DNA from: a virus
Taxonomy: Duplodnaviria > Caudoviricetes
Length of the DNA stretch: 64,000 nt
IMG/VR virus record: IMGVR_UViG_3300027418_000009
Coordinates: 2,217 to 66,216 of that record
Direction: 5' to 3' (one strand)
Shown here: piece after piece, positions 10,168 through 43,226 of the stretch
Layout: the number at the start of each line of letters is the position of its first letter
How positions within the stretch are numbered: position 1 is the first letter of the stretch
The notes under the pieces: model-generated
What the model was told of the DNA's origin: nothing
Databases searched by the model: none
The model's input: only the letters and a program-made list of their open reading frames with translations
Program-made: the position numbers and the translations under genes

Positions 10168-10240
10168 TGGGCTGTAACTCAGTTGGTAGAGTGGCGAACT
10201 GTTAATTCGCAAGTCGTAGGATCGAGGCCTACCAGCCCAG
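10168..10240 (+). tRNA. tRNA-Asn(GTT)
   Basis: Cloverleaf; acceptor tgggctg/cagccca; anticodon loop ctGTTaa. Confidence 0.9.
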
Positions 10241-10244
10241 CAAA

Positions 10245-10318
10245 GGTCACGTAGTTCAGTTGGTTAGAACGCCACCCTGTCACGGTGGAGGTCGACGGTT
10301 CGAGTCCGTTCGTGATCG
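10245..10318 (+). tRNA. tRNA-Asp(GTC)
   Basis: Acceptor ggtcacg/cgtgatc; anticodon loop ctGTCac; GGTTCGA T-loop. Confidence 0.92.
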
Positions 10319-14927: not shown

Positions 14928-15215
14928 ATGCCTAAGCATGAGTGGAAAGACGATGGACTTTGTTTAGACTATGATACAAACTTATTCTTTGATAAGTATG
15001 AAGAGGATGCATTTCTTAGACCAGCAGTAGATAAACTTTGTTCCACGTGTCCAGTTTCAAATACTTGCTTTGCAGTGGGCATATCTCAAAAAGAATGGGG
15101 AGTGTGGGGAGGAGTATTCCTTGAAAGTGGTATAATATCTAAGGAGTTTAATAATCATAAGACTAAAGAGGCCTGGGCAAATACTTGGGAAGCACTAACA
15201 ATAGAAAAAGGATAA
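14928..15215 (+). CDS. whiB: WhiB-family transcription factor
   Basis: C-x(n)-CxxCPV...C and GVWGG turn. Confidence 0.9.
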   Translation: MPKHEWKDDGLCLDYDTNLFFDKYEEDAFLRPAVDKLCSTCPVSNTCFAVGISQKEWGVWGGVFLESGIISKEFNNHKTKEAWANTWEALTIEKG

Positions 15216-24102: not shown

Positions 24103-24175
24103 TACCCCTGGCAGGAATCGAACCTGCGACGCTTGGCTTAGAAGTCCAACGTTCTGTCCACTGAACTACAGAGGT
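24103..24175 (-). tRNA. tRNA-Arg(TCT)
   Basis: Reverse-strand cloverleaf; anticodon loop ctTCTaa. Confidence 0.9.
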
Positions 24176-24176
24176 G

Positions 24177-24253
24177 TGGTACACCAGGTAGGACTTGAAC
24201 CTACGATAGCCGAATTATGAGTTCGGTGCCTTAACCAACTTGGCTACTGGTGC
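24177..24253 (-). tRNA. tRNA with CAT anticodon (Ile2 or elongator Met), CCA encoded
   Basis: Anticodon loop ctCATaa; lacks the initiator GGG/CCC anticodon stem. Confidence 0.88.
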
Positions 24254-24527: not shown

Positions 24528-24977
24528 TTAATCACGATTGCCATCCCAGTCACCAATCTTAGTAGTAGGAATTCCATAGTTTTCCCATAACTTAATAACA
24601 CTAGGGTTATCATCTACTGCATGAAAAACATTCCAATGCTTCTTAATCTTAAGTAGAATATCTTTTTTAACTTCATAGTCTGGTCTGTTGTCATCATCAC
24701 TACGCATATATAATGCGTGATGTCCAATATCGTTCTTGGCAAGCCAATAAGATGTTAGTCCACGCCAAACTTCTTTTCGTGAGGTAACAATAATAATATG
24801 CATCTGATCAAAGAATGCCTCATTAAGCATTTGGACTACTTCAAAATTTGGCAGGGCATCTATAGAAGCCTCATGAAAAGCCTCATAGTCCCTATTAGAG
24901 CCACGAACATGGTGGATGTATGGATCTACATTGGCTAGCGTTCCATCTACATCGAATATTACTGCTAAGGGTTTCAC
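24528..24977 (-). CDS. HAD phosphatase, PseT (polynucleotide kinase) phosphatase-like
   Basis: FDVDGTL, VTSR, LYMR...RPDYEVK, VDDNP. Confidence 0.8.
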   Translation of the reverse strand: MKPLAVIFDVDGTLANVDPYIHHVRGSNRDYEAFHEASIDALPNFEVVQMLNEAFFDQMHIIIVTSRKEVWRGLTSYWLAKNDIGHHALYMRSDDDNRPDYEVKKDILLKIKKHWNVFHAVDDNPSVIKLWENYGIPTTKIGDWDGNRD

Positions 24978-25131: not shown

Positions 25132-25202
25132 CTTCCAGACATAGACTCGAACTATGATTCACGGCTTCAAAGGCCGTTGTCCTGCCATTGGACGATCTGG
25201 AA
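25132..25202 (-). tRNA. tRNA-Gln(TTG)
   Basis: Reverse-strand cloverleaf; anticodon loop ctTTGaa. Confidence 0.88.
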
Positions 25203-25206
25203 TTAG

Positions 25207-25278
25207 TAGCCCTACAGAGAATTGAACTCTGCCCACCAAGATGAAAGCCTGGTATCCTAACCACTAGACGATAGGGCC
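25207..25278 (-). tRNA. tRNA-Glu(TTC)
   Basis: Reverse-strand cloverleaf; anticodon loop ctTTCat. Confidence 0.88.
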
Positions 25279-25279
25279 G

Positions 25280-25353
25280 TGGAGCGAGTGACCAGAATCG
25301 AACTGGCACAATCAACTTGGAAGGATGATGCACTACCATTATGCAACACTCGC
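25280..25353 (-). tRNA. tRNA-Gly(TCC), CCA encoded
   Basis: Acceptor gcgagtg/cactcgc; anticodon loop ctTCCaa. Confidence 0.88.
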
Positions 25354-26189: not shown

Positions 26190-26377
26190 TCAATACTTGT
26201 AATGGTCATGTATGGTTCTTCTCGCATGGCAATTGCTCTAGCCTCTTCTTCCGTGGCAGCCATAATGTCCAAATGAAAGGATCTATCGTAGTCTAATAGT
26301 GATACTGTGTATACGTTCATATATCAATTATACACCCACCACCCCTTGAATGTCAAATATGATGATATAATAATCTT

Positions 26378-28026: not shown

Positions 28027-29290
28027 TTATCCACAGGTTTAGACATAGTCTGGATGGTCTAATGGAGTAGGTGCTGTGATAAGACATTTACATTCCATAC
28101 ATTGGGCATCATCCAATAAATACCCTGCGATTTCATAGGTTTGTGGATCAAACTCTACAGTTAACCTTAAGAGTGTTGAGTGACAACAAGGACATACAGG
28201 TGTAGGGATACCTCTGATATCTATCATGGTTATCCAGCCATACGGATTTGTTGAAGATAGGCCATGTAGTTGAGAAAGATGAATAGGCCTAGCATTATGA
28301 TTAGGAAAGGTTTCATATATCCATCATATCACAGACAGGGGGAAATGTCCAATGTATCGTAATGTTTATATACCGTGGTTTTTTAAAGTTATCCACAGGC
28401 TATAGAACATATCTATTACATATGTTTGGTAGTTATCCACAGGCTAAACGATAATTTGTATACCAGGAATTAGTGGTTTAGCATAGTTATCCACAGGTTT
28501 ATCCACAGATTAATCTTACTGATAATATATTTAGACATTCTAGAAGTGGAGTGAAGTGGAGGATAGTGGAGTATGGAGCATTTTCAAGAAGGGCGTCGTA
28601 ATCTTTAACGGCCAAACCTCCTATCTACAAAACCTCCTATCCCCCTTTGCCCCTTATACCACAAACCTTTCTATTTGTCAAACCTTACAAGACATGGGCA
28701 TTATATACCATGAAACATGGTTTGTCAAGCCCAATTATTGTGCAAAACCTCATATAAAATTTGTACGAATTTGTGGATAAAATCAAATAAAATTAAATAA
28801 ATGTTTTAAATGTTTTATAAAAGAATCAAAAAGTTATTGTTTTATATATGGTGGTTTTACTATAGGGATTTGGTATCAGATGATCCTCTGTCCCCTGGGA
28901 TTTTGGGCTGGTACGGGGAAGAAAAATGCTCCTTCGTAATGTCGTGGCGAGATTGTACCACCTCCCACTGACATGCCTGGTACGGGGAAAAAATTCCGTC
29001 CTTCGTAATGTCTTCTAGTATTATTAAACTTGCCGATGGCGGGGGATAGAAAAGACTATGCAAAATACCCTAGGTATAACATCAAACAACTATACCACAG
29101 TATGGGTTGATTTGACAAATTGGGATATGTTTGATATAAGGGTTTGATATATAAGGTTTGATATGCTAGGTACGGGGAAAAGAAATGGCTCTTCGTAATA
29201 GAGGTTTGAAAAACCTAGGTTTGGGGAAAAGAATTGATCCTTCGTAATAAAGGTTTGAGAAAACCTATGACTGATATGTCTGGTTTGATA
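28027..29290. other. candidate replication origin
   Basis: Six TTATCCACA boxes, converging AAACCT/AGGTTT repeats, AT-rich core at 28780-28860, four GGGGAA-N12-TTCGTAA motifs. Confidence 0.5.
28039..28227 (-). CDS. small Zn-ribbon protein
   Basis: CPCC...CMEC. Confidence 0.55.
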   Translation of the reverse strand: MIDIRGIPTPVCPCCHSTLLRLTVEFDPQTYEIAGYLLDDAQCMECKCLITAPTPLDHPDYV

Positions 29291-32679: not shown

Positions 32680-33696
32680 TTATGCGAGTGACATTACACC
32701 CTGTACAACTTTTAACAAACGATTTTTTTCTGCGTTAATAGCAGGGTCAAAACCACTTGCGGAAGCAAGGATAGATTCGTTAGAACCACCACGAGCAGAA
32801 CGGAACCAGTCAAGGCGTTCAGTTAGCGCATTGAAAGCACCCCACGCATTACCCGCAATCATTCCGTTAAACTCTCCTGTGTAGATGTCATTGATAACAT
32901 CAACCTTGTTTTCCCATTTCTTTACAGCACCCTTAGCGTCTTTTTCAGGCTTAGGATAAGCAGCAAGAATAATTTTGTTAAAGTCTAGCGCATTGACTTC
33001 TTTTTCAATCATAGCCTTAGCCATGATGTCAAATTCGTCCATGTACTTATTAGCCATGCCTAGAGTTTCTCTAGCAATAGCAACTTTACCACTAGCGGTC
33101 TGTGTGTGGCGAATCTTGAAAGATTGCTTGATACCATTCTTTTTCTTGATTGAACCAAGAGCAAGATTGAGAGTGTTAGCGCACACTACACGAACAGGTG
33201 TAATGCTTGCTTGAATAGCGATTGAGCCGTCATGTGATGTGTTGATGAGCAAATAAGTTTTTACCTTATCAGATACACCATTAGGGTCAAGAACAGTTTC
33301 GCGTTCTAGTGCTAGTGCGCCAAATACTACACGCCCACCCTTAATTGAGCCAGCCGTTTCCCAACGACCACCACCATCAAGAATGTTGTCACCAAATGAG
33401 AATAAATCCTCATTTTGTAAAACATGATAACGCTCACCTACTACACCTAAAATGTCAGTCTGTGTTGTATCTGTTGGGTTAGTACGCAAAACATACTGGT
33501 ATGCCTTGTCGCTTGTTAGATGTGTTGGGGTTTCTAAATCCTCAAGACGAACATTCCAATTATCAAGACTTGCTAATGAAAGCATTTCTGATGTTGTTTT
33601 TTCATCTGTGAATACAGTACCCAATCCATGCCAAGCAGGTTCTCTAAATGAAGCAAAAGAAGCCTTGCCGTTTTGTGTTTCTAGGTCATGTGCCAT
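32680..33696 (-). CDS. DUF932 family phage/plasmid protein (TIGR03299-like)
   Basis: MAHDLE...PAWHGLG, ETAGSI.GG, NTSHDGS, TPVRVVCANTL, IRHT, WGAFNALTE. Confidence 0.85.
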   Translation of the reverse strand: MAHDLETQNGKASFASFREPAWHGLGTVFTDEKTTSEMLSLASLDNWNVRLEDLETPTHLTSDKAYQYVLRTNPTDTTQTDILGVVGERYHVLQNEDLFSFGDNILDGGGRWETAGSIKGGRVVFGALALERETVLDPNGVSDKVKTYLLINTSHDGSIAIQASITPVRVVCANTLNLALGSIKKKNGIKQSFKIRHTQTASGKVAIARETLGMANKYMDEFDIMAKAMIEKEVNALDFNKIILAAYPKPEKDAKGAVKKWENKVDVINDIYTGEFNGMIAGNAWGAFNALTERLDWFRSARGGSNESILASASGFDPAINAEKNRLLKVVQGVMSLA

Positions 33697-34336: not shown

Positions 34337-34398
34337 AAGGGGCCTCTTTCTGTTAGTTGGTTAATTTAATTATACTGGGTGCCACTGACAATTGTCAA

Positions 34399-34896: not shown

Positions 34897-34981
34897 TGGG
34901 GCTCCTTCTTGTTGTTTATATTAATTATACTGTGTGGGTCTGACATTTGTCAAGTGCCCTGGTGATCGTGGGGGAGTGTTG

Positions 34982-36847: not shown

Positions 36848-37480
36848 GGGAGAGACTCATTTCTAGTGCCATGTCTTCATTCGTTACTGAGTCTGCTAAT
36901 TCATTTGTCCAGCAATAATCACAGATAGGCATGAATTCATCAACCGCATTTTCTTTACATTTAGGGCAGGTTGTTGCGTAGTATTCATCTAGCAGTTCAT
37001 CATTTTCGTAGGTCATGGGCTATTCTCCTTGTTGTTTCTTTAATTGTAGCAGTTCGGACTGACATTTCCTACGATTGTAGGCTTTCTTTGAAGGCACGGC
37101 AGAGGCAGCATTAGAACGCCTTAGTTCCATAAGTCTGCGTAATTCCTCATTTGTTTTCTTCATATAGCAATACTAACACACATCTGATAAAAATGTCAAA
37201 TCCAGATCGTGTGATAAAAATCACAAAAAATTTTTCCCGCCCAGGATTGGGGGAAATAAAAATTGCCTTCTTAAAGATATTTTATAAGGGTTACCAGTGA
37301 GTAGGTCAAGGTTATCCACAGGTTATACACAGACACACCCGAACGCGCCGATGAAAAAATTGCAGTTTTTATTCTGCAATCTTTTTTTTATTTATTCTTT
37401 TTCGATTTCATCTAACAATTCCCAAAGTATTGGTTCTAGTTCTTTAGAAACTAAATCTAATTTTTCTTGTAGTGTTTTCA

Positions 37481-37675: not shown

Positions 37676-38133
37676 TAGTTTTCTACTTTCTTTAGTTCAT
37701 GATTATTATTAAGGGGGCGATTGTTATTAGAGAACATGGACTCTATAACCGCTTTATCTTTTATTGATTGAGCAATTCTTTTTTCTTGTTGCTCTTTAAG
37801 AATTCTATCAAAGGTACTCATTAGTCAAAGTATCCAAATTCTCCTATGCAAGAACCACAGATACCTGAGAATTCTTGCTCATGCTTTTCGCAATAAGCGA
37901 CTTTCTTTTTTTCATTAGTGTTAGTCATTTTTGACCTAACCTTTCTTAGTGAGAGTTTCTCACTTTCTTACTCTGTAAGTGTAGCACGAAAGGCTGACAT
38001 TTATCAAGTTACTAGGCAGTAATTCCACATAGTAAGACGCTCAAGGCGTGTGATAGTAGTCACAAGAGTTATCCACAAGAGTTATCCACAACAGTTATCC
38101 ACAGGCGCCGATGAAAATTTGTCGGCATTTTTT

Positions 38134-40274: not shown

Positions 40275-40472
40275 TTAGTTTGAGTTTGAGGGGATTAGAG
40301 TGCCACGCATTGTGCCACTAATTCCAAGAGAGTCACAAGCGACTCTAACGGATACGCCAACAGGTAATTGAGTTGGGTAAGTTGAGATGAATTGAGCAAC
40401 CGCACCTTTAGAGGGTAGGCTGATTGTTTTTACAGAACCATTAAAGGTTTCTAGTTTTAGAGTGTAAGTCAT
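40275..40472 (-). CDS. hypothetical protein
   Basis: Own promoter; SD AAGGA. Confidence 0.55.
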   Translation of the reverse strand: MTYTLKLETFNGSVKTISLPSKGAVAQFISTYPTQLPVGVSVRVACDSLGISGTMRGTLIPSNSN

Positions 40473-40531
40473 TATTTGACTTCCTTTCGTTTTTAAGTGA
40501 TAAGACTATCTTACCATTAGGGGCTGACATT

Positions 40532-40599
40532 TTGGCTACTTATTTGCTAAGGCTCACTGTGATACTGGTCACATTTATTTGCTTAGGCTCATTAGCCAA
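40532..40599 (-). ncRNA. double UGAGCC..GCAAAUAA element A
   Basis: ttggcta-a-tgagcctaagcaaataa-a-tgtga(ccagta)tcaca-g-tgagccttagcaaataa-g-tagccaa. Confidence 0.55.
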
Positions 40600-41310
40600 T
40601 TTGTCCTTTATTTAATTTTTTTCTATACCTAGAAGTATAGCAGACCAAACCCCAAAAGTCAAATTTAGACACGCACAAATCGGACATTTTGACTATGATT
40701 TACATCACATTTTGCCGATGAAAAAATCGCAGTTTCTACACTGCGACCTTTCTTTTATTTATTCAACAGGTAAAATTTCAAACACATCAAAATTTTCTAA
40801 TTCGCTTTCACTAAGTTTAGTAAAAATTTTATTTAAATTAAAAACTGCTTGTAGATCTGTATCTGCTTCAGTTACAAAACTGATTAAAACATTTCTTTTC
40901 ATTTACTTTCCTTTCTTGTATAAGAAATCCCACGCCTTACGGCATAAGATGATTGACTTACAGTTATCACAACAGATAACACCATGAGGGTTTAAGTCAA
41001 GGTCATAGATGTCTATGCTAGTGCTAACCGCACCGCATACTGATTTAATTGGTACATAGGTACTCATTTATTTTCCTCTTTCATTTTTTCTTGAATTGCT
41101 TTTGATTTCATTAGGGCTTCTAAGCCTTTACCTAATGAGGCAAGGCGTTGAGCCTCTACCATTTGTTTGTATTCATCTAATTTCATTTAGAGTAACTACC
41201 TTTCTTTATTGCCTCATCTAGCATTTTTGCTAAATCAGGGTGAATTCCTAATGCTGGACTTTCCCAGTAGGTTTCTAATTCTAATTTTTCTACAAAATCT
41301 TTCATTAGTA

Positions 41311-41535
41311 TTACTCCCAACTTCTATTAGTAGCGTACACCTTGCGAGTGCTAGGTGTGTAGTTTTCTAACTCTGTTAGAGAAACTTCTAGGATAGTACC
41401 TTTAAGAGATACTAAGTCTAGGTATTCGTTAGCGTAGACTTCGCTAGGCACTACTAGAGTCGTAGTGCTAAACTCTCTTGATAGAGGATAGTTAGGGTTA
41501 GAGTTATGCTCTACCTTGTAGGTTAGTGAAAACAT
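41311..41535 (-). CDS. hypothetical protein
   Basis: Own promoter; SD AAGGA. Confidence 0.55.
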   Translation of the reverse strand: MFSLTYKVEHNSNPNYPLSREFSTTTLVVPSEVYANEYLDLVSLKGTILEVSLTELENYTPSTRKVYATNRSWE

Positions 41536-41954
41536 TTTGTTTTCCTTTCTTTAAGAGATTTACTTATTGTTCAATCTTTATACTAGTAAGTATAGCACGG
41601 GGTACTGACATTTTGACCTGTATTTCGGGCGTGTCTGAAAAGTATTTTTGTGATAAACCTCACATAAGTTATACACAGCCTGTGGATAACCTCGATGAAA
41701 TTTTTATCGGCGATTTTTATTCACTTTTTACAGATAAATAAAAACCGCTAATTAAACAGATCATAGAAAACCAAAACAATGCGTTTCCACTTTCAAAAAA
41801 AGTTTGATAAAAACTCATTTTTTATAAACCTTCTTTCCATAGTATTCATCAAATTCAGTTATAGTCATTAGACCTTTATACTCATTACAGAAACCGCAAA
41901 ATAGCGTTCCCTGAGAATAAGTGTTTTCACAAAAGCAACAAATTAGAGTACTCA

Positions 41955-42143
41955 TTATTTAGACACATACCAATCTGTCCACATAGGTAGACGCTCAGGG
42001 TCACCATCATAGTAGTAACGCTCAATGTTATTTTCACAATCTTGACAGAAAGTAAATTGCTCATCTCCAATTTCTGAGATAGCAGATTTCATTGGATTGT
42101 GCTCTACGCACTTTTTATTTTCTAGTGTTATCATTTTTGACAA
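41955..42143 (-). CDS. hypothetical protein
   Basis: C..H...CQDC. Confidence 0.5.
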   Translation of the reverse strand: MSKMITLENKKCVEHNPMKSAISEIGDEQFTFCQDCENNIERYYYDGDPERLPMWTDWYVSK

Positions 42144-42190
42144 CCTTTCTTTTTTTTATTAGTTAATTTTTATTAAGTTTTTTTATCTAA

Positions 42191-42385
42191 TTACTTAGAT
42201 GTTGGAAGTGAGTTACCACAGCGACTATGGTAGCATTTTCTACCATACTTGTCACCTTCTGGTGTACACATTTCGTGGATTGTAGCAGGTGCTAAAACAA
42301 CCTGACCACATTGGCAGGTATTCATTAAACCTGCTGGGTAATCGCTTACTGTAGCGAATCCCTGACCAAAGATACTATTTGACAT
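42191..42385 (-). CDS. hypothetical Cys-rich protein
   Basis: First gene of the leftward unit; SD AAGGA. Confidence 0.55.
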   Translation of the reverse strand: MSNSIFGQGFATVSDYPAGLMNTCQCGQVVLAPATIHEMCTPEGDKYGRKCYHSRCGNSLPTSK

Positions 42386-42536
42386 TTTATGTCCTTTCTA
42401 AGTTTGAGAACCTTTCTCAACTTTCTTTATACTGTAAGTATAGCAGGGGGGTCTGACATTTAGGGGGGTATAAAACGGACATTGTGGACATTGTGATGTA
42501 GCACACATGTGATATAGACCACATTTGCCGATGATC

Positions 42537-42640
42537 TATATAGGGGGTATATACATAGGGGGTACCTGTATGGGGGGGTACCTGTATGGGGGTACCTATA
42601 TAGGGGTACCTGTATAGGGGGTGTGTATATAGGGGGGGTA
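42537..42640 (+). repeat. G-tract tandem repeat (7 units of about 15 bp)
   Basis: G4-G7 runs at 42543, 42558, 42572, 42588, 42603, 42617, 42632 separated by TACCTGTAT-like spacers. Confidence 0.85.
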
Positions 42641-42753
42641 TTTTTTATCGGCGTTTTGTGATGGACATCACATGCGACACGCCGTGTTATAACTTGACTT
42701 TTAAGGGTAGATGTGTTATTATACTAGTATAAGAAAAATTAAATAGAGTTAAA

Positions 42754-42816
42754 AGGTCAATGAGCCTAGCAAATAAGATAACAAAAAGTTATATGAGCCT
42801 AGCAAATAAGTGACCT
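42754..42816 (+). ncRNA. double UGAGCC..GCAAAUAA element B
   Basis: aggtca-a-tgagcctagcaaataa-g-ataac(aaaaa)gttat-a-tgagcctagcaaataa-g-tgacct. Confidence 0.55.
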
Positions 42817-42917
42817 AAATCACATAGTACACGCTCCACATAGTGAGACTACTAGTGAGTATACTAGACAGTACGGGAAATGTCTGCTAGTATTACTACT
42901 ATAACAATTAAATAAAA

Positions 42918-42981
42918 AAGTTTGAGCCTTTAGGGTGAGCCTCTAGAAATAGAGCAAATAAATCTAAAGCAAATAAAACTT
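42918..42981 (+). ncRNA. nested UGAGCC..GCAAAUAA element C
   Basis: aagtt-tgagcc-tttagg-g-tgagcc-tcta(gaaa)taga-gcaaataa-a-tctaaa-gcaaataa-aactt. Confidence 0.55.
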
Positions 42982-43016
42982 AGCCCCTATTAACTAAAAA
43001 AGAAAGGTGGTCAAAA

Positions 43017-43226
43017 ATGACTACATTAAATAACTACTATAACGAAATACGCTCTGATATTGCTAAAGAGTTTGGATTAGAGGCAGCAGGTTACGCCCCT
43101 GTCCCTAAGTACGCATTGACATTACGCCAATGTCAAATACTAAACAATAAGTACCCTATGGATAAGGCTAAGTATATTGTTAAACGCTACATGTCCCTAT
43201 ATGGTAACAAAAAGGTAGGTAAGTAA
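43017..43226 (+). CDS. hypothetical protein
   Basis: SD AAGGTGG; first rightward gene. Confidence 0.55.
   Translation: MTTLNNYYNEIRSDIAKEFGLEAAGYAPVPKYALTLRQCQILNNKYPMDKAKYIVKRYMSLYGNKKVGK

What the first reader, a model, noticed from the sequence alone, without database searches (positions are those of the whole stretch)
40532..42981. Paired UGAGCC..GCAAAUAA module in three structured leaders downstream of early promoters
Seen: elements A (40532-40599, -) and B (42754-42816, +) share one architecture, outer stem / motif / inner hairpin / motif / outer stem, with entirely different stem sequences. Element C (42918-42981, +) nests the same two modules inside each other, replacing the 2-3 nt spacer with a stem and a GAAA tetraloop. 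The unit is therefore UGAGC-[C..G helix]-CAAAUAA, always in two copies. A and B lie a few tens of nt downstream of TTGACT..TATACT-like promoters on either side of the divergence point; C precedes the first rightward RBS. Inference: a two-site RNA ligand for a dimeric protein, such as an antitermination element (analogous to HK022 put or lambda nut) or a sponge for a host RNA-binding protein.
Basis: partly seen in the sequence, partly recalled or inferred. Interest (0 to 1): 0.8.

Follow-up and report, generated by a model that had tools for sequence, protein, structure and literature searches.

The report
Modular loop-array leader RNA in actinophages
Three early-gene leaders of this uncultured phage, and the leaders of over a hundred relatives, carry a conserved RNA rod built from two to four copies of one unchanging internal loop; it matches no catalogued RNA family and its job is unknown, my best guess being control of early transcription.

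Summary
All six TGAGCC..GCAAATAA units sit at A, B and C (chance expectation 0.05).

The fold needs one correction. In A and B the 2-3 nt "spacer" of copy 1 pairs with the spacer of copy 2. It is the exact reverse complement in 113 of 113 distinct relatives, with five pair types. Each element is therefore one rod holding asymmetric internal loops, 5'-UGAGC opposite 5'-CAAAUAA. The loops lie head-to-head in A and B and in tandem in C. Relatives carry 2, 3 or 4 loops.

Stems covary strongly: 91% of cells paired, covariation score 0.47 against 0.12 in shuffles, 0 of 500 shuffles as high. The loop letters are almost invariant.

The motif occurs in at least 120 IMG/VR contigs. It matches no Rfam family and no cultured phage. 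It always lies sense-strand in a 5' leader (51 of 60 against 0 of 60), behind a TAAATA box, at 1-3 copies per ~100 kb genome.

The phages encode WhiB, so the host is probably an actinobacterium. Contigs from RNA libraries cover all three elements.

Function is untested. My best guess, at about 0.35, is a nut/put-like docking site that changes the fate of early transcripts.

The parts
40634..40662 (-). Promoter-like site P(i)L: TTGACT, 17 nt, TATACT, with TG before the second hexamer
   Evidence: The same TTGACTTTT..-10 layout stands upstream of long-class elements in relatives.
40608..40616 (-). Linear leader box AUUAAAUAA, upstream of element A
   Evidence: Sequence read. A TAAATA box lies within 45 nt upstream of the first UGAGC in 103 of 125 distinct elements, against 76 of 2000 random windows.
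40526..40605 (-). Element A, one rod. Outer GACA/UGUC pairs 40602-40605 with 40526-40529. P1 pairs 40593-40599 with 40532-40538. UGAGC at 40587-40591 and 40552-40556. CAAAUAA at 40575-40581 and 40540-40546. Central helix CUAAG/CUUAG pairs 40582-40586 with 40547-40551. Inner hairpin UGUGA-CCAGUA-UCACA at 40558-40573.
   Evidence: MFE fold -19.1 kcal/mol, z -3.09, 0 of 200 shuffles as good. Model R1 scores 80 bits, E 8e-20. Covariation.
40508..40533 (-). Second promoter-like module directly after A: AAAATGTCAG-CCCC-N6-TAAGAT
   Evidence: Sequence read. A TGTC[AGT]G box lies within 25 nt downstream in 44 of 53 long-class elements and 0 of 60 short-class elements.
40275..40472 (-). First gene after A (P0001, 65 aa). 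Conserved small protein of unknown function.
   Evidence: 36 distinct homologues in loci; 1281 clusters.
42694..42722 (+). Promoter-like site P(i)R: TTGACT, 17 nt, TATTAT, with TG
42737..42746 (+). Leader box AAUUAAAUAG, upstream of element B
42754..42816 (+). Element B. P1 AGGUCA/UGACCU pairs 42754-42759 with 42811-42816. UGAGC at 42761-42765 and 42794-42798. CAAAUAA at 42770-42776 and 42803-42809. Central helix CUAG/CUAG pairs 42766-42769 with 42799-42802. Inner hairpin at 42778-42792.
   Evidence: MFE fold -11.4 kcal/mol, z -2.26. R1 scores 79.6 bits. Homologues at L053:11639-11707, L079:7756-7824 and L098:2826-2892.
42865..42893 (+). Promoter-like site between B and C: TAGACA, 17 nt, TAGTAT, with an AAATGTCTG box in the spacer
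42906..42915 (+). Leader box AAUUAAAUAA, upstream of element C
42918..42981 (+). Element C, two loops in tandem. P1 AAGUU/AACUU pairs 42918-42922 with 42977-42981. Outer loop is UGAGC 42923-42927 opposite CAAAUAA 42970-42976. Helix CUUUAG/CUAAAG lies within 42928-42934 and 42962-42969. Inner loop is UGAGC 42936-42940 opposite CAAAUAA 42955-42961. Cap is CUCUA-GAAA-UAGAG at 42941-42954.
   Evidence: The MFE fold gives this nesting, but z is only -0.80. All 17 of 17 distinct nested outer units in relatives keep both helices with different letters. L119 is a fully diverged tandem homologue.
43017..43226 (+). First rightward gene after C (P0002, 69 aa, no known family)

Best explanation
**What it is (shown; I put this part at about 0.9).** A, B and C are copies of one conserved, modular structured RNA. 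It is encoded in the 5' leaders of early transcription units of an abundant family of uncultured, WhiB-encoding phages, probably of actinobacteria.

Each copy is a single rod. Short helices of 3-8 bp vary freely and covary. They separate 2-4 copies of one almost invariant asymmetric internal loop, 5'-UGAGC on one strand and 5'-CAAAUAA(N) on the other. A linear box A-N-AA-U-UAAAUAA lies 11-30 nt upstream.

**How it works (inferred).** The invariant loops are docking sites for one conserved macromolecule. Because the loops stay unchanged while the phage proteins diverge to 30-55% identity, I take that partner to be a host component.

**Mechanism I commit to (about 0.35).** The box-plus-rod acts in cis on the polymerase that has just made it, as lambda nut or HK022 put sites do. 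Transcripts started at the upstream sigma-A-type promoter would then be elongated differently from transcripts started at the TGTCAG-box promoter that sits immediately downstream of A and B. The difference would be read-through of terminators or pauses in the long early region.
For: **Structure**
- In 43 sequences aligned by MAFFT, 88.9% of cells pair. The covariation score is 0.405 against 0.110 in shuffles, with 0 of 500 shuffles as high. Slid controls reach at most 47.7% paired.
- In 56 distinct model-aligned sequences, 91.1% of cells pair. The score is 0.471 against 0.117, again 0 of 500.
- The central helix is complementary in 113 of 113 distinct elements. There are five pair types, including the compensatory CUAC/GUAG.
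- Nested helices are kept in 17 of 17 distinct outer units.

**RNA-level reading**
- 51 of 60 distinct elements have a ribosome-binding site and an ORF within 170 nt on the sense side. The antisense side has 0 of 60.
- GAAA caps the inner hairpin in 35 of 60 short-class elements.
- Contigs from four RNA libraries cover A (40496-40620), B and C (42760-42877, 42795-43032, 42942-43048).
- The two halves of the unit can be split by 3-10 nt plus a whole inner element and still keep their letters. Only a folded single strand explains this.

**Likeness to nut/put**
- A linear conserved box precedes the rod (103 of 125 against 76 of 2000).
- There are 1-3 copies per ~100 kb genome, not one per promoter.
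- The copies flank a divergent early region here and in L053, L079 and L098.
- Long-class elements sit between two tandem promoter-like modules (44 of 53). Only RNA from the upstream promoter therefore carries the element.
- The phage records hold no sigma factor (0 of 5). Timing must then work through host polymerase.
- An intrinsic terminator lies in the leftward early region at 37380-37355.
Against: - No terminator lies close behind any element. The first on A's strand is about 3.2 kb away. Most early units downstream have promoter-like sites of their own, four of them perfect TTGACA/TATAAT matches. Read-through is therefore not obviously needed.
- Short-class elements lie 15-35 nt before a start codon. 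That position suits a translational or stability role equally well.
- The architecture, one rod with repeated loops, is neither put's two hairpins nor nut's small boxB (put and nut features are recalled).
- No N-like arginine-rich protein was found. P0001 and P0002 match no family. The P0001 model has no RNA-binding-like fold match.
- Stem mismatches do not separate RNA from DNA: 9 G-U cells against 9 A-C cells.
- RNA-library contigs can contain DNA, and they give neither strand nor ends.
- The inner stem of the long class is sequence-conserved as TGTGA-N6-TCACA (43 of 53). This hints at an added DNA-level role.
Confidence: 0.35

Rival explanations
1. Processing or stability element. The rod is a substrate for a host double-strand-specific or loop-specific RNase (RNase III, RNase E or RNase J). 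Cleavage or blockage would set the 5' end and lifetime of the first early mRNA, as the RNase III site before gene 0.3 does in T7 early RNA (recalled).
For: - The rod amounts to about 20-30 base-pair equivalents, with symmetric internal loops.
- It lies in the leader of the first, abundant early gene.
- The head-to-head form has the two-fold symmetry that a dimeric nuclease would suit.
- The phage encodes no RNase III of its own (0 of 5), so a host enzyme would be used.
Against: - RNase III sites do not need invariant loop letters or an upstream linear box (recalled).
- The tandem and three-loop forms are not two-fold symmetric.
- About 20 nt of unpaired A/U-rich leader precedes the rod, so it is not a 5'-terminal protective hairpin.
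- The contig data cannot show ends.
Confidence: 0.2
2. Multivalent decoy. The leader, processed or not, titrates a host RNA-binding protein, for example a defence nuclease or a global regulator. Its 2-4 identical loops would serve as binding sites, as phage pseudo-ToxI repeats or RNA anti-CRISPRs do (recalled).
For: - Copy number of the loop varies from 2 to 4 while the loop letters stay fixed.
- A strong consensus-like promoter stands upstream.
- One locus per genome would suffice.
- The neighbouring first gene gives a weak likeness to small phage inhibitors: AcrIF9 with probability 0.90 and TM 0.50, Dmd with TM 0.54, all at E >= 0.15.
Against: - No terminator or obvious release signal follows the element, so it stays part of an mRNA.
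- The strict leader position and the upstream box are not needed for a decoy.
- The fold hits are below significance.
Confidence: 0.12
3. Translational operator. A phage protein, possibly the product of the first gene downstream, binds the loops and feeds back on translation of the operon.
For: - Short-class elements end 15-35 nt before the start codon.
- Long-class elements are followed by the conserved P0001 gene in 36 distinct loci.
Against: - The genes behind the element differ between lineages. P0001-like genes, P0002-like genes and others are seen.
- In G003 the P0002 homologue lies upstream of the element.
- In the long class a promoter-like module separates the element from the gene.
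- P0001 has no RNA-binding family or fold match.
Confidence: 0.1
4. Self-contained tertiary or ligand-sensing RNA. The loops would be metal- or ligand-binding or docking modules. [quoted passage not shown]
For: - The loop holds UAA on one strand and GAG on the other.
- UAA/GAN loops are described as GNRA-like internal loops that make A-minor and other long-range contacts (passages of PMC2615604 seen).
Against: - The published signature is a compact loop, ccUAAg/uGAagg. Here four extra nucleotides (CAAA) and a C lie between the UAA/GAG and the next helix.
- No expression platform follows, neither a terminator nor a sequestered ribosome-binding site.
- The cap is not always GNRA.
Confidence: 0.07
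5. DNA-level element. It would be a single-stranded or cruciform DNA structure, or a set of protein-binding repeats, acting in replication or promoter control. The inner TGTGA-N6-TCACA would be a CRP-family site for the promoter just downstream.
For: - One copy per ~100 kb genome in G001, G003 and G004.
- Iterons and DnaA-box-like repeats lie nearby.
- TGTGA-N6-TCACA is sequence-conserved in 43 of 53 long-class elements, and 44 of 53 are followed by the TGTCAG-box module.
- G-U cells do not outnumber A-C cells.
Against: - Split half-sites with covarying helices cannot be read on duplex DNA.
- Orientation is strictly sense (51 of 60 against 0 of 60).
- GAAA tetraloops are an RNA habit (recalled).
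- By my count, the palindrome centre lies about 64.5 bp before the presumed start of the downstream promoter. That is not the classical 61.5 (recalled).
- RNA-library contigs cover the elements.
Confidence: 0.08

Closest known systems
HK022 putL/putR (RNA-only processive antiterminators; features recalled, no call)
   Same: Structured RNA of about 65-80 nt, encoded just downstream of the divergent early promoters. There are one or two per genome, acting (as proposed here) in cis on host polymerase. The phage has no sigma factor of its own.
   Different: put is two separate stem-loops. This element is one rod with 2-4 repeats of an invariant internal loop plus an upstream linear box. There is no sequence or model match in Rfam. 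Read-through is untested, and the host is probably an actinobacterium.
Lambda nut sites (boxA + boxB; recalled)
   Same: A conserved linear box is followed after about 10 nt by a structured element. The sites lie on both arms of a divergent early region. The first gene follows directly.
   Different: boxB is a 5-bp hairpin with a pentaloop bound by an arginine-rich N protein. Here the recognised parts are internal loops in variable number, and no N-like protein was found.
RAT hairpins bound by BglG/SacY/LicT CAT dimers (recalled)
   Same: A hairpin is interrupted by two similar asymmetric internal loops, read quasi-symmetrically. This is the best architectural analogue of A and B.
   Different: RAT overlaps a terminator. 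No terminator follows here. No CAT_RBD domain is present in 5 of 5 phage records. The tandem and three-loop forms have no RAT counterpart.
T7 early RNase III sites (recalled)
   Same: A rod-like hairpin with internal loops lies in the leader of the first early gene, downstream of strong host-type promoters.
   Different: The loop letters here are invariant across phages whose terminases share about 55% identity. An upstream box is present. Cleavage is untested.
UAA/GAN internal-loop motif / UA_handle (PMC2615604, passages seen; Lee et al. 2006 seen only as a reference entry there)
   Same: UAA on one strand faces GA-N on the other.
   Different: The flanks differ from the published signature ccUAAg/uGAagg. 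This loop is 5 x 7 nt. Its three-dimensional form is not known.

Membership tests
Any Rfam 15 family | Match to a curated covariance model | tested here: not met
   At gathering scores only 7 tRNAs match in the window. With E up to 10 over 40400-43100, only two weak, unrelated hits appear: snR76 at 21.4 bits and antisense_SR1 at 14.9 bits.
HK022 put | Location shortly downstream of the early promoters, on both arms | tested here: met
   The divergent layout is also seen in L053, L079 and L098.
HK022 put | Two adjacent stem-loops (recalled definition) | tested here: not met
   Single rod with internal loops.
HK022 put | Terminator read-through in cis without a phage protein; blocked by polymerase zinc-domain mutants (recalled) | not testable with these tools
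   Needs transcription assays.
Lambda nut | Linear boxA followed by a structured boxB | tested here: inconclusive
   The box-plus-structure layout is present (103 of 125). The letters and the structure type differ from boxA and boxB (recalled).
Lambda nut | Cognate arginine-rich N protein encoded just downstream | tested here: not met
   P0001 and P0002 match no family and are not arginine-rich. The P0001 model is a small beta-beta-alpha-beta-beta fold.
RAT / CAT antiterminator | Hairpin with two asymmetric internal loops | tested here: met
RAT / CAT antiterminator | Overlap with an intrinsic terminator; CAT_RBD protein partner | tested here: not met
   No terminator-like site lies behind A, B or C. 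PF03123 is found in 0 of 5 phage records. The host genome was not available.
RNase III processing site | About two turns of mostly double-stranded RNA, cleaved by RNase III | not testable with these tools
   Length and shape are compatible. Cleavage cannot be seen in contigs.
UAA/GAN internal loop | UAA opposite GAN, flanked directly by Watson-Crick pairs (signature ccUAAg/uGAagg) | tested here: inconclusive
   UAA and GAG are present. Four extra nucleotides separate UAA from the central helix.
CRP/FNR-type DNA site (inner stem of A only) | TGTGA-N6-TCACA palindrome at an activating distance from a promoter | tested here: inconclusive
   The palindrome is conserved in 43 of 53 long-class elements. 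By my count, its centre is about 64.5 bp upstream of the presumed start of the next promoter. That is about 3 bp off the classical 61.5 (recalled), and the transcription start is unknown.

The most novel reading that the evidence does not exclude
The UGAGC/CAAAUAA loop is a portable RNA docking module for a conserved host protein, used in arrays of 2-4. As a box-plus-rod leader it would be the first RNA-based processive antitermination or elongation-control signal described for actinobacterial phages. It would also be a new RNA class with a new recognition principle: repeated internal loops in either orientation. Alternatively, the same array is a multivalent decoy that disarms a host RNA-binding defence or regulatory protein at the very start of infection.
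Probability: 0.25. Interest if true: 0.85.

Novelty: new variant of a known kind. Interest (0 to 1): 0.7.

Why it matters
Structured leader RNAs that reprogramme host polymerase or RNA turnover are known mainly from a few enterobacterial phages. Here a single, sharply defined RNA module is conserved in at least 120 viral contigs. The lineage is abundant: its adjacent gene family alone has 1281 clusters at 90% identity. The module is absent from Rfam and from cultured phages.

Its design gives a clean experimental handle. The loop letters are fixed, the helices vary freely, and both copy number and orientation vary. One can mutate the loops and keep the helices to find the partner.

If the partner is host polymerase, a Nus factor or an RNase, this would open early-gene control in aquatic actinophages. 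It would also add a new RNA-protein recognition module. If it turns out to be only a stabilising hairpin, it is still a new, well-supported RNA family worth cataloguing.

Tried and rejected
**Known families and known phages**
- Rfam gave nothing relevant, either at gathering scores or at E up to 10.
- BLAST of the 3.1 kb region, and of single elements, against 50,697 phage records found no match in near or distant mode, even at E up to 1.
- The paired pattern occurs in only 4 short MAG contigs among 185,579 species genomes. It is therefore not a host chromosomal motif, as far as an exact pattern can tell.

**Literature**
- The 16-mer, as DNA or RNA, occurs in 0 papers of the library. The 884 papers holding the shorter words were unrelated in the 15 listed.
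- 'UAA GAN' plus 'internal loop' found 0 papers.
- 'cross-strand AAA stack' found 16 papers. I read passages of one, PMC2615604.
- Supplementary files were not opened.

**RNA against DNA**
- G-U cells against A-C cells in the stems came out 9 against 9, which is uninformative.

**Phage-encoded partners**
- Sigma70_r2, RNase III, CAT_RBD and dsrm domains are each found in 0 of 5 records.
- Ten small early ORFs, and ten further conserved small ORFs, gave no useful Pfam or PHROG match.
- The P0001 model (pLDDT 83.4) had 0 PDB matches at E <= 0.001. The protein atlas returned only unnamed viral clusters at scores below 0.9.

**CRP class-I spacing.** My count of 64.5 bp does not fit 61.5.

**Gaps in RNA-library cover.** In the four RNA runs laid, the bins 40616-40927 and 42488-42695 had little or no cover, while the leaders beside them were covered.
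- These bins hold the promoter regions and the iterons.
- The contigs that stop at 40620 run on with unlike letters (a relative's promoter region), so they mark no RNA end.

**Runs found but not laid.** X18 and X20 say nothing.

**Not attempted.** Complex prediction (no candidate partner), a metagenome-contig scan, and a second structure job for P0002 (only 4 homologues).


Full report
**1. The observation.**
The pattern TGAGCC-N(1-30)-GCAAATAA gives 7 matches in 64 kb, against 0.05 expected, and 0 of 100 shuffles reach 7. Six matches are the units of A, B and C. The seventh (33223-33256) lies antisense in a DUF932 gene and is weak under the covariance model at 15.6 bits. Taken singly the halves are unremarkable: GCAAATAA occurs 10 times against 5.3 expected, and TGAGCC 26 times against 25.3. 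It is the pairing of the halves that is special.

Sigma-70-type promoter-like sites lie upstream of each element:
- TTGACT-17-TATACT at 40662-40634 (minus strand)
- TTGACT-17-TATTAT at 42694-42722 (plus strand)
- TAGACA-17-TAGTAT at 42865-42893 (plus strand)

**2. The fold.**
Minimum-free-energy folds of A and B give one long hairpin:
- an outer stem
- a loop formed by UGAGC and CAAAUAA
- a 4-5 bp central helix made by the two "spacers" (CUAAG with CUUAG in A, CUAG with CUAG in B)
- the same loop in the opposite orientation
- an inner hairpin

A folds at -19.1 kcal/mol (z -3.09) and B at -11.4 kcal/mol (z -2.26).

C places two loops in the same orientation. They are separated by CUUUAG/CUAAAG and capped by CUCUA-GAAA-UAGAG. 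Its thermodynamic signal alone is weak (z -0.80). The real unit is thus an asymmetric internal loop, 5'-UGAGC opposite 5'-CAAAUAA, usually with one more unpaired nucleotide, and a helix on each side.

**3. Relatives.**
The window is most of a 66 kb IMG/VR virus record.
About half of the rows were paired copies.
- Cultured phages hold nothing similar.
- Among one genome each of 185,579 prokaryote species, only 4 short MAG contigs match.
- Rfam has no matching family.
- The 16-mer is absent from the paper library.

**4. Covariation.**
- A MAFFT alignment of 43 elements, scored on the proposed structure, gives 88.9% paired cells. The covariation score is 0.405 against 0.110 in shuffles, with 0 of 500 as high. 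Slid controls reach at most 47.7% paired.
- Model R1 finds 63 matches in 100 loci. The 56 distinct rows give 91.1% paired and a score of 0.471 against 0.117, again 0 of 500. This alignment is fitted to the model, so it leans towards the structure.
- In 113 of 113 distinct elements the first spacer is the exact reverse complement of the second. The types are CUAG/CUAG 69, CUUAG/CUAAG 17, CUAAG/CUUAG 15, CUAC/GUAG 9 and CUGAG/CUCAG 3.
- For the nested form, 17 of 17 distinct outer units keep at least 3 bp of inner helix and at least 4 bp of outer helix, with different letters. Mismatched partners do so in 3 of 198 and 42 of 198 cases.
- Loop letters barely change. Only U1 to C, A to G at the second position of CAAAUAA, and A to U at the fourth were seen.

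**5. Variants.**
Relatives show several arrangements:
- head-to-head pairs, as in A and B
- tandem pairs, as in C, with L119 a fully diverged homologue
- three-loop forms, in which an outer loop encloses a head-to-head pair
- two head-to-head elements in a row (L073, L095)

Two classes emerge.
- *Long class (53 elements):* an inner hairpin of 17-18 nt, which is TGTGA-N6-TCACA in 43. A TGTC[AGT]G promoter-like box follows within 25 nt in 44.
- *Short class (60 elements):* a small inner hairpin, capped by GAAA in 35. None has that box downstream, but 43 have it upstream.

**6. Context.**
- Of 60 distinct elements, 51 have a ribosome-binding site and an ORF of at least 35 aa starting within 170 nt on the same strand. 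None does on the other side.
- A TAAATA box (consensus A-N-AA-T-TAAATAA) lies 11-36 nt before the first UGAGC, most often 22 nt. It is present in 103 of 125 distinct elements, against 76 of 2000 random windows.
- Copy number is low. The window has three. Five large related records have one R1 match each. A regex scan of three whole records of 100-108 kb finds exactly one each.
- The window is syntenic with G001 and G004.
- In the window both arms share one plan: upstream promoter, head-to-head element, TGTCAG-box promoter, then the gene. On the right arm element C is added before the gene.

**7. The phage.**
- The terminase is 52% identical to those of Streptomyces phages.
- WhiB is present in 5 of 5 records.
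- PASTA, GP88 and DUF932 domains occur.
- No sigma factor, RNase III, CAT or dsRBD domain was found.
- P0001, the first gene after A, has 36 distinct homologues in the loci and 1281 clusters in the protein collection. None in the rows listed carries a name other than 'hypothetical protein'.
- Its model (pLDDT 83.4, beta-beta-alpha-beta-beta) has no significant PDB match.

**8. Expression.**
Fourteen runs guessed to be DNA hold at least 87% of the region's words. Six RNA runs hold 9-20%. I laid contigs from four RNA libraries at 90% likeness or more. They cover:
- A (40496-40620, in two runs)
- B and the B-C spacer (42760-42877, 42788-42873)
- B through C to the first codons (42795-43032)
- C (42942-43048, 42954-43108)

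Many pieces are 90-95% alike, so they come from relatives. Contigs give no ends and no strand, and DNA can be present in such libraries. This shows presence in RNA libraries, not a proven transcript.

**9. Mechanism.**
Shown:
- a folded single-strand element with invariant loops and free helices
- sense orientation in early leaders
- low copy number
- an upstream linear box

Inferred:
- It acts as RNA.
- The loops are recognition sites.
- The partner is conserved, probably a host component. The loops stay fixed while phage proteins fall to 30-55% identity.

I commit, at about 0.35, to a nut/put-like action on the transcribing polymerase. The reasons are the box-plus-structure layout, the placement on both arms of a divergent early region, and the position between two tandem promoters. 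That position means only upstream-initiated RNA carries the element. In addition, the phage has no sigma factor of its own.

Against this:
- No terminator lies close behind any element.
- Many internal promoters occur in the early region.
- Short-class elements lie next to start codons.

The rivals are processing or stability, a decoy, a translational operator, a tertiary or ligand-sensing RNA, and a DNA-level element. They are scored in their own sections.

**10. Comparison and novelty.**
The element works most like put or nut in placement, and most like RAT hairpins in shape. It fails defining features of each: two hairpins, boxB plus an N protein, and overlap with a terminator plus a CAT protein. 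The loop contains the letters of the UAA/GAN motif but not its published flanks. I file it as a new RNA motif: a new variant of the known kind "cis-acting structured phage leader RNA".

Noticed in passing
window 40620-40645 (-), 40500-40515 (-), 42716-42732 (+), 41580-41600 (-), 42420-42440 (-); relatives' loci: The -10 hexamer of these promoter-like sites is the left arm of a short inverted repeat that spans the presumed start site (for example TATACT-tct-AGTATA and GTAAGA-tag-TCTTAT). The arm letters differ between sites but stay complementary. Arms of at least 5 bp occur in 53 of 93 distinct upstream stretches, against 14.6% of shuffles. The meaning is unknown.
   Followed up: partly
window 42540-42640: About five tandem copies of a GGGGGTACCTGTAT-like iteron lie between the leftward promoter-like site at about 42460 and the rightward one at 42694. 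Similar GGGGGGTATGTAC boxes stand near elements in L018 and L036.
   Followed up: no
window about 38060-38100, 37310-37340 (read on the minus strand) and 41680-41690 (+): Repeated TGTGGATAAC, which matches the DnaA-box consensus as I recall it, occurs in intergenic gaps of the early region.
   Followed up: no
window 40720-40746, 37355-37380, 38107-38126: Hairpins with A-runs before and T-runs after (bidirectional terminator-like sites). On the minus strand each is followed by the same words, TTTTCATCGGCG.
   Followed up: partly
upstream of the -35 hexamers, e.g. window 42670-42685 (+); many loci: A conserved box CGACACGCC(G), in either orientation, lies a few nt upstream of the -35 hexamer of element-bearing promoters. 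An ATGTCAG-N-CCCC box lies directly after the -35 in a second promoter class (box counts).
   Followed up: partly
window 34924-34953, 34369-34398, 28700-28728, 26327-26356 (-): Four perfect 12-of-12 TTGACA/TATAAT promoter-like sites lie on the minus strand of the early region.
   Followed up: no
window 10168-10318 (+) and 24103-24253 (-): Two pairs of tRNA genes with near-equal scores lie in inverted orientation, about 14 kb apart. Three more tRNAs lie at 25132-25353. A PNKP-type phosphatase domain lies next to them at 24528-24977.
   Followed up: no
window 40275-40472 (-): P0001 is a very abundant, well-conserved 61-65 aa early protein (1281 clusters). Its model has a confident beta-beta-alpha-beta-beta fold with no significant structural relative. 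The weak likenesses are to AcrIF9 and T4 Dmd.
   Followed up: partly
window 40558-40573 (-): The inner stem of A is a perfect TGTGA-N6-TCACA palindrome. It is kept letter for letter in 43 of 53 long-class relatives while the other stems vary. It may be a CRP-family DNA site for the promoter just downstream.
   Followed up: partly
window 14928-15215 (+): A WhiB-family gene (G000:17159-17332, 42.7 bits), present in all five related records searched.
   Followed up: partly
L010, L020, L050, L053 downstream of three-loop elements; G003:56920-56950: A further small hairpin (for example GAUUAGAAAGUCUAAUC) lies between three-loop elements and the ribosome-binding site.
   Followed up: no
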